From contig CM082583.2 in NCBI GenBank assembly GCA_040954595.2, positions 8,542,254 through 8,606,253 on the forward strand: DNA of 64,000 nt. The letters run 5' to 3'. Of this stretch, positions 20,748 through 23,700 are shown one piece after another (the first letter of the stretch is position 1; each line of letters begins with the position of its first letter). The stretch is from Balanoglossus misakiensis. Its lineage: Eukaryota; Animalia; Hemichordata. The translations under genes were made by a program, and so were the position numbers. Under the pieces are notes generated by a model, which had not been told where the DNA came from, did not search any database, and was given only the letters and a program-made list of their open reading frames with translations.

Positions 20748-23700
20748 ATGGCCATGCTTTCCACGCGACTTACATCTGCCTTAGCCAGACAACTGCCCAG
20801 GCAAATTCCAAAGGTAATCTAGAAAATCCAAGCATTTAAAATGGGAATTTTATGCATATTCTGCGTTTTGGGTACGACCGGCGTTTTTATGTGTTGCTGG
20901 TGTACGTGTGAACGTGATGTTTGCTGCATGGCGTCCGTTCTGTATCATTTTTTCGGTTTCAAGAGAAAACCGACTTTCTTGTTTTAGTTCTTACAAGCCA
21001 GTTAGTGAAAATACTTTACGCCACATCGTTTAGCTTATGTGCTTCCTGTGCAAGATTTGTAAATCTGCTATTTTCTGACGACGGGAAAGCTGTGCGATGT
21101 GCAGAACCAGTTCAAAGGTCATCGTTCACGTTGAACATGTTCATTTCGTTGTAAATCCAATCAAACCGTAACTGTACCCATTTCATTGCTCTTTCACAGA
21201 TATGTCGGGCGGCACCAGCAGCGGCTTTTGTCGCAAACAGACACATTAACACATCAAGACCAGCTTACCAAGGTACAAATGCAATACAATGCAATTCACA
21301 CCTTGCATGAAATTGATACAAAGTGATTAGCACATCATCATACCAGGTTTCAACAGTTATGAAAGCTGCTCTTGTAGTATGGGAAAGCCAACCACATGCA
21401 GCTTTGATGAGCATGCTATAATCTGCCAGCATACACATTTCGATTAGAATTTTCTGACATAATAGGTATGAATCTTTGAAATGCAAAATAACTGTAAAAT
21501 GCAGATGTGTTGCATGTCATAGCAGGATTCCATGTTTGGTGTTTGTTATCGCCAATCAAGGCCAGTTGACATGCTAGAGAAACTTCACCCTGAACCATTG
21601 TCAGGCTCTTTTTCACAGTGGGCCTAACACACTGATGCGGGTGATACAATCCAAAACACATAGATGATAATATGCACAATATGAGGATGGAGGCTTAGTA
21701 CATGTGACTATTATTTTGAACACCACAGTGTTTTGACAGTAAGATTTGACAGCTTATCTCTTCTCCCCTGACAGGAACGGCTGAAGTGTCATCAGTTCTA
21801 GAAGAGCGCATCCTCGGAGCTAGCACAAAAGCAGATTTAGAAGAGACTGGACGTGTTATGTCAATAGGAGATGGTATTGCTCGCGTGTACGGTCTTAAAA
21901 ATGTGCAGGCGGAAGAAATGGTAGAATTTTCCAGTGGCCTCAAGGTGATTATGTTCACAACGACAATAATGATTTCATGCCAAGAATTGCAGTCAGTACC
22001 ATGGTGCACACTGCATCCTTTGCATTTGAATTCACTTTTCTTCTCAAACAGTAATTTGGTGTTGTCACCAAAGTTTCTATGAACTTTTGGAAGAATGGTA
22101 AATGGTGGAACGACTTTAGCGATAATGGAGGTTTGATGCAAAACTGAAATGATTTGGTCATCTTGGAGGTTTGCCCTTGTTGATGTTTCATGTTAATTTT
22201 TTTGCGATCTTGTTTTGTGTGCAGGGTATGGCCATGAATTTGGAACCCGACAGTGTGGGTATTGTGGTATTCGGTAACGACAAACTGATCAAGGAGGGTG
22301 ACATTGTGAAAAGGACAGGTGCTATTGTAGACGTTCCGGTTGGTGAAGAGCTGCTTGGAAGGGTAGTGGATGCCCTCGGAAATCCCATCGACGGAAAGGT
22401 GAGAACTGGAACGATTTTGATTGTAGCGTAGGAATCTCAGCCACTGCTGACTAACAGCAAAGTCGTCCTGTAATTTGATTCATGTGGTTTTTGAAGCAGT
22501 AGCCAAAATGGATAACACTGGTGTTGTTTGATATTGTAGGGTGCATTCAAGGGTACAGAGCGCCGCCGTGTGGGTCTCAAAGCCCCTGGTATCATTCCCC
22601 GTATCTCCGTGAAGGAACCCATGTTGACGGGTATCAAAGCTGTCGACAGTCTGGTGCCAATTGGTCGTGGCCAGCGTGAGTTGATCATCGGTGACAGGCA
22701 GACTGGGTGAGCAGTTTTGTTCATTGATTGCTTTCTGATTGTGGACGGATGAAAACGATGGCAATATAACCGAGGGGGATGTGGTGGCAATAACTTGTCG
22801 TTAGTTATTCCGTGTTCTGTTATTTTCCGTCTCTAACCAAATTTCCACCCTTTTGTCTGCCACAGTAAAACTGCTGTAGCCATCGATGCCATCATGAACC
22901 AAAGGCGCTTCAATGAGGGAGACAACGAGAAGGCCAAACTCTACTGTATCTATGTTGCCATCGGACAGAAGAGGAGTACAGTGGCACAGATTGTACACAG
23001 GCTTACGCAAGCAGGTGTGTAGTGGAAATTGTCAATGTTCAGGTTATCAGACTCTTGATGAGTGTGTAGTTTCTCACTGCAGGTGGAGAGAGAGGCTCGG
23101 GGAAATGATTCCTAGGGCATTGGAGCTTGCGATAAATGCTTACACCTTGCATACTTTTCCCCACTGTGTAGGCCAGCTTAACCACCATTCCCTGCTTTCT
23201 CTCTGCAGATGCCATGAAATACACAATTGTGGTGAGTGCCACAGCGTCTGATGCAGCACCTCTGCAGTATCTCTCACCGTACTCCGGATGCGCCATGGGT
23301 GAATACTTCAGGGACAACGGCAAACACGCCCTTATTATTTATGACGATTTGTCCAAACAGGTATGATATGCGTACCTCTTGCTTCTTTCTCATGTTCTCT
23401 TCTCTGGCTGTGATGAATAATAGGTATGAATCTTTGAAATGCAAAATAACTGTAAAACGCAGATGTGTTGCATGTCATAGCAGGATTCCATGTTTGGTGT
23501 TTGTCATCGCCAATCAAGGCCAGTTGACATGCTAGAGAAACTTCACCCTGAACCATTGTCAGGCTCTTTTCACAGTGGGCCTAACACACTGATGCGGGTG
23601 ATACAATCCAAAACATATAGATGATAATCTGCCTGCAGTTTAATGCACAATATGTGTATGCCAAAAGCCACTCGTATCACATGCGTTCTTTTCCCCGCAG

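What the first reader, a model, noticed from the sequence alone, without database searches (positions are those of the whole stretch)
21582..21651. H/ACA 3' pocket matches the first 15 nt of tRNA-Gly: candidate snoRNA-guided tRNA U8 pseudouridylation
Seen: pocket strands CTGAACCA (21590-21597) and ACTGATGC (21631-21638); CTGATGC begins 14 nt before the ACA box. Established: metazoan tRNA-Gly(GCC) starts GCAU(C/U)GGUGGUUCAG. G1-G7 pairs with CUGAUGC (1-2 G.U) and G10-G15 with CUGAAC, leaving U8-G9 unpaired in canonical guide geometry. C/D guides for tRNA are known (SNORD97 on tRNA-Met), but I know of no metazoan H/ACA guide for tRNA U8, and I found no comparably good rRNA/snRNA match from memory. 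Inference: one snoRNA with both pockets aimed at about position 8 of two different RNA classes (18S rRNA and tRNA-Gly or its 5' fragments). This would be an undescribed link between ribosome and tRNA modification.
Basis: inference. Interest (0 to 1): 0.8.

Follow-up and report, generated by a model that had tools for sequence, protein, structure and literature searches.

The report
18S guide RNA, tRNA-Gly side match
Two copies of a small guide RNA, in introns of what is likely the ATP synthase alpha gene, are predicted to mark uridine 109 and likely uridine 8 of 18S ribosomal RNA for conversion to pseudouridine, while the reported match to glycine tRNA is real in sequence but would be at most a side activity.

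Summary
The RNA is a box H/ACA snoRNA related to SNORA42/SNORA80 (Rfam E 4e-8, below the family cut-off), in two near-identical intronic copies. The tRNA-Gly(GCC) complementarity is real: 12 usable pairs with 1-2 G.U, about 2-5% by chance per pocket. In the same register (14 nt from ACA) the pocket pairs with 18S U109 by 12 Watson-Crick pairs and a canonical two-base gap. U109 is the listed SNORA42 target and is 99% pseudouridine in human. Ten of the 12 tRNA pairs come from the 18S-required core. The tRNA geometry is not canonical: three guide bases are left over, two of them complementary to U8-G9. A side activity stays open (about 20%). Human PRAISE data show 8-13% pseudouridine signal at U8 only in tRNA-Gly-GCC, with no enzyme assigned, and one SNORA42:tRNA-Gly chimera read exists. 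BACS does not call the site. The 5' pocket fits 18S U8 rather than the family's U572; human U8 is unmodified. The host's own 18S, tRNA and expression were not seen. The scan had not noted this RNA on other DNA.

The parts
21512..21651 (+). box H/ACA snoRNA, copy A (SNORA42/80-related), in intron 2 of the host gene
   Evidence: Rfam RF00406 49.3 bits, E 4.2e-8, gathering score 70; folds
21512..21575 (+). 5' hairpin; pocket strands 21522-21529 and 21562-21565, predicted target 18S U8
   Evidence: z -3.4 for 21508-21576; 8+4 pairs, upper stem closes next to the pocket, 14 nt from H box
21576..21581 (+). H box AGAGAA (ANANNA)
   Evidence: sequence; aligned to the family H box
21585..21644 (+). 3' hairpin; lower stem 21585-21590 with 21639-21644
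21591..21598 (+). 3' pocket, 5' strand; 21592-21598 pair with 18S 111-117, 21591-21595 can pair with tRNA-Gly 10-14
21632..21638 (+). 3' pocket, 3' strand; 21632-21636 pair with 18S 104-108, all seven can pair with tRNA-Gly 1-7
21646..21648 (+). ACA box
23470..23608 (+). copy B of the snoRNA in intron 7; one substitution and one indel against copy A, both in apical loops; pockets identical
   Evidence: RF00406 53.8 bits, E 2.9e-9; alignment
21459..21671 (+). duplicated block (snoRNA plus about 50 nt upstream and 20 nt downstream), matching 23417-23628 with 4 differences
20748..24962 (+). host gene, 11 exons with GT-AG introns, one open frame of 553 codons; read as mitochondrial ATP synthase alpha (ATP5F1A) from recalled motifs, not from a database match

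Best explanation
This intronic H/ACA snoRNA, present in two copies, likely guides dyskerin to convert 18S rRNA U109 to pseudouridine with its 3' pocket, and the tRNA-Gly match is likely a by-product of the tRNA's 5' end resembling the U109 site. Shown: the boxes, the hairpins, the family relation and the pairings. Inferred: release from the spliced intron, loading of dyskerin/NOP10/NHP2/GAR1, and catalysis (standard H/ACA pathway, established knowledge). U109 guidance alone about 0.9. The 5' pocket is predicted to have switched from the family's U572 to 18S U8 (about 0.55); the two sites share the AUCCU stretch read by the pocket's 5' strand, so a few substitutions would suffice. The confidence given is for 'U109, with no measurable tRNA modification'.
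For: Family hit RF00406 with the 3' hairpin aligned end to end. SNORA42 is listed for 18S U109 and U572 (table rows in PMC3511933 and PMC10835520); human U109 is 99% pseudouridine (PMC6182160 table). A pattern made from the reverse complements of both pockets returned 99 metagenome loci, all with the same 18S 5'-end context; 3 of 3 checked with Rfam are eukaryotic SSU rRNA. With the 3' strand starting at 21632, the target U is at position 109 in 63 of 99 loci (107-111 in all 99) and pairs 5+7 Watson-Crick or better in 86 of 99. It is the top site in 21 of 21 loci with 6 kb or more and in 2 of 2 mature rRNA sets (12-13 against 8-8.5 for the next site); 3 of 300 shuffled pockets reach it. The three guide bases that only 18S uses (21596-21598) match the vertebrate consensus; of the three that only tRNA uses, two differ from it. 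Ten of 12 tRNA pairs come from the 18S core. Opening tRNA 1-15 costs 11.4-11.6 kcal/mol against 4.1 for the 18S site. A U that pairs with the guide is no longer modified in yeast tests (PMC6049503 passages). BACS calls no Gly-GCC U8 site in HeLa (3 of 3 Gly-GCC rows are position 55); DKC1 knock-down did not lower bulk tRNA pseudouridine (PMC10576143 passage).
Against: On bare duplex energy tRNA-Gly is as good or better: -8.6 to -11.4 kcal/mol without the stem-invading pair and -11.2 to -14.0 with it, against -11.1 for 18S in the 6+6 register. The three pocket bases free of the common 18S context are all Watson-Crick to tRNA-Gly; 1 of 64 variants does as well. G21637 is in the vertebrate consensus yet pairs with 18S in only 23 of 99 loci. 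Human tRNA-Gly-GCC carries an unassigned U8 signal. The 99 loci were selected by the pocket pattern, so presence of the site is circular (its rank is not). They are other animals' rDNA; the host's own 18S was not seen. The pocket-open fold prefers an upper stem slipped by 2 nt from the one homologous to the family.
Confidence: 0.68

Rival explanations
1. Dual target: the 3' pocket guides 18S U109 and also, at low level, U8 of unfolded pre-tRNA-Gly(GCC) or its 5' fragments; vertebrate SNORA42/80 would do the same weakly and explain the human orphan site.
For: 12 usable pairs, 1 of 64 for the free bases, P 0.02-0.055 per pocket. PRAISE in HEK293T: U8 signal only in tRNA-Gly; Gly-GCC-1/2/3/4 at 10.6, 9.2, 7.9 and 12.9%, 6.9-17.3% across PUS1, PUS7, TRUB1, PUS10 and PUS7L knock-outs, enzyme column blank. 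The vertebrate consensus pocket gives 4+4 contiguous pairs plus 2 after a mismatch, at the 8-pair minimum of PMC6049503, which would suit a low level. One SNORA42:tRNA_Gly_GCC chimera read in PARIS2. Pockets with two targets and unusual three-way junctions are known (PMC6984369 section 10, PMC8763049 passages).
Against: Non-canonical geometry with U8 and G9 able to pair to the guide. Acceptor and D stems must melt. BACS has no call (cut-off 10%, so it does not exclude 9%). A signal unchanged in every knock-out is also what an artefact looks like, and untreated controls show 1.8-3.9% deletions there. Gly-CCC-1 has no U8 call, and Gly-GCC-1 is as high as the others although it differs at position 5 (isodecoder sequences recalled, not checked). 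The chimera is a single read, equal to SNORA42:Lys-CTT. No data are from this animal.
Confidence: 0.2
2. Binding without catalysis: tRNA-Gly 5' fragments pair over all 15 nt (7+8, no gap) with the two pocket strands and act as competitors or cargo, with U8 held paired.
For: The zero-gap arrangement gives 7+8 pairs. 5' tRNA-Gly fragments with this start recur in tRNA-fragment tables.
Against: No binding data. Fragments are mostly cytoplasmic and the RNP nucleolar (established knowledge). It needs the lower stem to open by one pair.
Confidence: 0.07
3. As first read: the 3' pocket is dedicated to tRNA-Gly U8 and has no rRNA target.
For: The tRNA complementarity itself.
Against: 18S U109 fits in the same register with canonical geometry, and the 18S-only bases are conserved with the vertebrate family.
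Confidence: 0.02
4. The copies are not expressed or not functional (snoRNA-like relics).
For: Score below the family cut-off; no expression data available.
Against: Intact H and ACA boxes, both pockets fit conserved 18S sites, sense orientation in introns, no pocket differences between copies or among contigs laid.
Confidence: 0.03

Closest known systems
SNORA42/SNORA80 (ACA42/ACA67) family, Rfam RF00406
   Same: Lower stem of the 5' hairpin, H box region and whole 3' hairpin align; same 3' pocket core; same predicted target 18S U109; intronic, multi-copy, changes host gene (human hosts KIAA0907 and ODC1).
   Different: 49-54 bits against a cut-off of 70; the upper 5' hairpin is not aligned by the model; the 5' pocket fits 18S U8 and not the U572-like site at 14-16 nt; three 3' pocket changes that all improve the tRNA-Gly match; host is likely ATP5F1A.
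Domain-wise target switching in vertebrate snoRNAs (SNORA25, SNORA16, SNORA58, SNORA40, SNORA22; PMC6984369)
   Same: One hairpin keeps its target while the other gains a new one; one pocket can serve two sites.
   Different: Those cases were mapped experimentally and concern rRNA; here U8 and the tRNA site are predictions only.
SNORD97/SCARNA97 and the snoRNA-tRNA network (Vitali and Kiss 2019, seen only as a reference; PMC10576143 passages)
   Same: Guide RNPs acting on cytosolic tRNA in animals.
   Different: Box C/D, 2'-O-methylation; in that study DKC1 knock-down left bulk tRNA pseudouridine unchanged.
PUS7-dependent pseudouridine 8 in tRNA fragments of Ala, Cys and Val (review PMC13270119 passages)
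   Same: Same tRNA position.
   Different: Stand-alone enzyme and other tRNAs; the Gly-GCC signal persists in PUS7 knock-out.

Membership tests
box H/ACA snoRNA | hairpin-hinge-hairpin-tail fold | tested here: met
   z -3.4 (0 of 200 shuffles) and -2.0 (7 of 200) for the two hairpins; whole RNA z -1.9 (8 of 200)
box H/ACA snoRNA | H box ANANNA in the hinge and ACA near the 3' end | tested here: met
   21576-21581 and 21646-21648; the 3' end itself is predicted, not measured
box H/ACA snoRNA | bipartite pocket placing a U 14-16 nt from the box with 8 or more pairs | tested here: met
   both pockets at 14 nt with 12 pairs to 18S; rule from PMC6049503
box H/ACA snoRNA | expressed and bound by dyskerin, NOP10, NHP2, GAR1 | not testable with these tools
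   only DNA contigs could be laid
SNORA42/SNORA80 (RF00406) | score at or above the gathering cut-off of 70 bits | tested here: not met
   49.3 and 53.8 bits, E 4e-8 and 3e-9; no hit at gathering
SNORA42/SNORA80 (RF00406) | pocket for 18S U109 | tested here: met
   numbering agrees with human modified U105, U109 and U116
SNORA42/SNORA80 (RF00406) | pocket for 18S U572 | tested here: not met
   at the U572-like site of one locus (context shared by 18 of the 21 loci that matched the regex) only 6 pairs on one strand remain and the other pairs 3 bases only at 12 nt from the H box; site identity rests on recalled human context
tRNA-guiding H/ACA RNA | canonical placement of tRNA U8 with an unpaired UN under the upper stem | tested here: inconclusive
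   12 pairs, but 3 guide bases left over and U8/G9 complementary to them
tRNA-guiding H/ACA RNA | modification depends on the RNA or on dyskerin | not testable with these tools
   no DKC1 knock-down tRNA table among the seven sheets of the PRAISE data file
scaRNA | CAB box (UGAG, recalled) in an apical loop | tested here: not met
   neither apical loop holds it

The most novel reading that the evidence does not exclude
The SNORA42/80 U109 pocket moonlights on tRNA: in this animal it has gained three extra pairs to tRNA-Gly(GCC) and guides pseudouridine at U8, and its weaker vertebrate counterpart is the missing writer of the unassigned U8 signal on human tRNA-Gly-GCC. That would be an animal H/ACA guide for a tRNA, which my searches did not find in print, in an RNA whose other pocket marks 18S U8, a site unmodified in human.
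Probability: 0.2. Interest if true: 0.75.

Novelty: new variant of a known kind. Interest (0 to 1): 0.4.

Why it matters
As most likely read it is a relative of a known rRNA guide, with one predicted lineage-specific change: a pocket for 18S U8, at the 5' helix of the central pseudoknot where U3 binds (recalled). Its added value is a cheap, sharp test. The only pseudouridine-8 signal reported on mature human tRNA is on tRNA-Gly-GCC and has no enzyme, and the study that found it also made DKC1 knock-down small-RNA libraries, so existing data could show whether dyskerin, and so a SNORA80-type guide, writes it. If so, H/ACA RNPs would reach tRNA in animals, and dyskerin disease would gain a direct tRNA target.

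Tried and rejected
No whole genome is held for this window, so the host's own 18S, snRNAs and tRNAs were not scored; snRNAs were not tested at all, and the host's taxon was left undetermined. Rfam at gathering threshold and ARAGORN find nothing in the window. No RNA holder listed; 2 of 3 DNA runs laid showed only copy A/B and flank differences. Viral contigs: 0 matches for the two-pocket pattern and 0 for the tRNA-shaped pattern; the bare 15-mer gave 120 loci, none a tRNA-Gly. No invertebrate orthologue of the snoRNA could be fetched, so compensatory change was judged only against the Rfam consensus. Considered and rejected: the second U (110) as target; it ties in score, but the human modified positions 105, 109 and 116 fit the first U. 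SNORA35 (18-20 bits, E 2-7) rejected as family; its listed targets are 566 and 350. U572 as 5' pocket target rejected. Paper searches: six spellings of 18S-U8/psi18S-110 gave 0 papers; 'tRNA-Gly, psi8, snoRNA, dyskerin' gave 6 listings, none suggesting a guide by title or abstract start; searches likewise. PMC6984369 main text does not name SNORA42/80; its supplements, which map 18S pseudouridines in several vertebrates, were not seen and may bear on U8. The supplementary figures of PMC13022450 (too large), three files of PMC12716993 and the supplements of PMC11863803 (dyskerin chimeras) were not seen and may bear on the tRNA claim. Earlier scan notes held nothing on this RNA.

Full report
Observation. 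The bases are as described: CTGAACCA at 21590-21597, ACTGATGC at 21631-21638, ACA at 21646-21648, with C21632 14 nt before ACA. They belong to the 3' hairpin of a 140-nt RNA, 21512-21651, with a 5' hairpin (z -3.4), an H box AGAGAA at 21576-21581 and a 3' hairpin (z -2.0). A second copy lies at 23470-23608. The two share a block of about 213 nt with 4 differences, only two inside the RNA and both in apical loops, and no third copy is in the window. Both sit in sense orientation in introns 2 and 7 of an 11-exon gene with one 553-codon frame, which I read as ATP5F1A from recalled motifs.

Family. Rfam finds nothing at gathering threshold. With E-values, both copies match RF00406 SNORA42/SNORA80 (49.3 and 53.8 bits, E 4e-8 and 3e-9, cut-off 70). 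The 3' hairpin aligns end to end; the upper 5' hairpin does not. SNORA42 is listed for 18S U109 and U572 (table rows, PMC3511933 and PMC10835520), and both are 97-99% pseudouridine in human, where the first 18S modification is at position 27 (table passages, PMC6182160).

The 3' pocket and 18S. I scanned metagenomes with a pattern built from the reverse complements of all four pocket strands. All 99 show the same 18S 5'-end context with a span of 112-116 nt, and 3 of 3 tested are eukaryotic SSU rRNA. The second U ties in score, but human modified U105, U109 and U116 fit the first. The site ranks first in 21 of 21 loci holding 6 kb or more (78 shorter loci left out) and in 2 of 2 mature rRNA sets, 12-13 against 8-8.5 for the next site; 3 of 300 shuffled pockets do as well. 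Presence of the site is circular because the pattern selected it; its rank and position are not. These are other animals' rRNAs.

The 3' pocket and tRNA-Gly. Five tRNA-Gly(GCC) genes were recovered (likely eukaryotic contigs in bacterial bins, inference). With stems excluded they give 12 pairs with 1-2 G.U (score 11-11.5 against 12-13 for 18S). On bare duplex energy they are comparable or better. A random panel of 800-1500 tRNA-like U sites reaches this with P 0.02-0.055: above chance for one pocket, expected a few times across a genome's pockets (inference). Ten of the 12 pairs come from the 18S-required core, because the tRNA start resembles the U109 site with three bases removed. The three free bases are all Watson-Crick to the tRNA, and only 1 of 64 variants equals that. 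Against guidance: C21596, A21597 and U21598 are left over, and the first two are the Watson-Crick partners of G9 and U8; in yeast a U made to pair with the guide stopped being modified (PMC6049503 passages). Opening tRNA 1-15 costs about 11.5 kcal/mol against 4.1 for the 18S site (simple folding model). The 18S-only bases match the vertebrate consensus. Of the tRNA-only bases, 21591 and 21638 differ from it and G21637 is kept; 21591 and 21637 also pair with 19 and 23 of the 99 18S sequences, so the host's own 18S could explain them.

Outside evidence on tRNA-Gly U8. PRAISE in HEK293T reports pseudouridine 8 only in tRNA-Gly (PMC13022450, section 7 and passages). Its data file gives 10.6, 9.2, 7.9 and 12.9% for Gly-GCC-1 to -4, 6.9-17.3% across five PUS knock-outs, no enzyme label, no call for Gly-GCC-5 or Gly-CCC-1, and no DKC1 tRNA sheet; the review file does not address the enzyme in the 8 passages shown. 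BACS in HeLa lists only position 55 for 3 of 3 Gly-GCC rows, with a 10% cut-off (PMC11541003 passages and supplement). The later BACS map has no 'psi8' in its main text (PMC12716993 passages). PARIS2 holds one SNORA42:tRNA_Gly_GCC read, and DKC1 knock-down left bulk tRNA pseudouridine unchanged (PMC10576143 passages and supplements). PMC11863803 main text does not name the family. The vertebrate consensus pocket gives 4+4 contiguous pairs with tRNA-Gly, the bare minimum. This is a real coincidence worth a test, but it fits an artefact or an unknown enzyme about as well.

The 5' pocket. With stems excluded, 21522-21529 and 21562-21565 pair 8+4 around 18S U8-U9, 14 nt from the H box, with the upper stem closing directly next to the pocket. 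It ranks first in 2 of 2 mature rRNA sets (11.5 against 8.5 and 9.5), and 4 of 300 shuffles reach it. With loose registers over spacers it is first or tied in 20 of 21 loci and beaten in one. The U572-like site keeps 6 pairs on one strand but has no usable partner strand at 14-16 nt. I infer a target switch of the kind shown for vertebrate snoRNAs (PMC6984369 section 10). U8 is unmodified in human, and six search spellings found no paper on 18S pseudouridine 8. Which state is ancestral is unknown.

Mechanism. Shown: boxes, folds, pairings, duplication. Inferred from the established pathway: splicing releases the intron, trimming leaves the RNA bound by dyskerin, NOP10, NHP2 and GAR1, and each pocket clamps pre-18S rRNA so that U109 (about 0.9) and U8 (about 0.55) are isomerised. 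A low-level side reaction on unfolded pre-tRNA-Gly is put at 0.2.

Papers seen. Passages: PMC1802619, PMC1687206, PMC13270119, PMC11863803, PMC6049503, PMC8763049, PMC12025293 (table). Table rows: PMC3511933, PMC10835520, PMC6182160. Passages plus one section: PMC6984369. Passages plus supplement searches: PMC13022450 (also section 7), PMC11541003, PMC12716993, PMC10576143. None was read whole.

Verdict. Observation partly confirmed, headline interpretation refuted by its own test, a weaker dual-target form left open. Because the family cut-off and the U572 pocket are not met, I call it a SNORA42/80-related variant and not a plain member. Interest 0.4.

Noticed in passing
window 4188-11533: Tandem array of 14 units of about 557 bp, each with a short internal 27-bp repeat and a hairpin that weakly hits mir-19 and mir-36 models; probably satellite or transposon-derived DNA.
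   Followed up: no
window 46036-46184: Long inverted repeat with a sub-threshold MIR8670 hit (78.7 bits, cut-off 150) on the minus strand and mir-3926 hits on both strands; looks like a small inverted-repeat element.
   Followed up: no
window 21629-21675: Contigs of runs X1 and X2 cover the snoRNA's 3' tail and then continue with a flank unlike copy A or copy B, at higher depth in X2; possibly a further copy or allele elsewhere in the genome.
   Followed up: partly
window 21459-21671 and 23417-23628: The snoRNA was copied between two introns of the same gene together with about 70 nt of flank and no poly(A) tail, which suggests a recent DNA-level duplication or gene conversion.
   Followed up: partly
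PMC13022450 Supplementary Data 1: The U8 signal on human tRNA-Gly-GCC has no assigned enzyme and persists in five PUS knock-outs; the study's DKC1 knock-down libraries are not tabulated for tRNA.
   Followed up: partly
L224 518-606 (minus strand): A tRNA-Leu scored 10 against the same pocket at U63, a reminder that near-matches to tRNAs are not rare.
   Followed up: no
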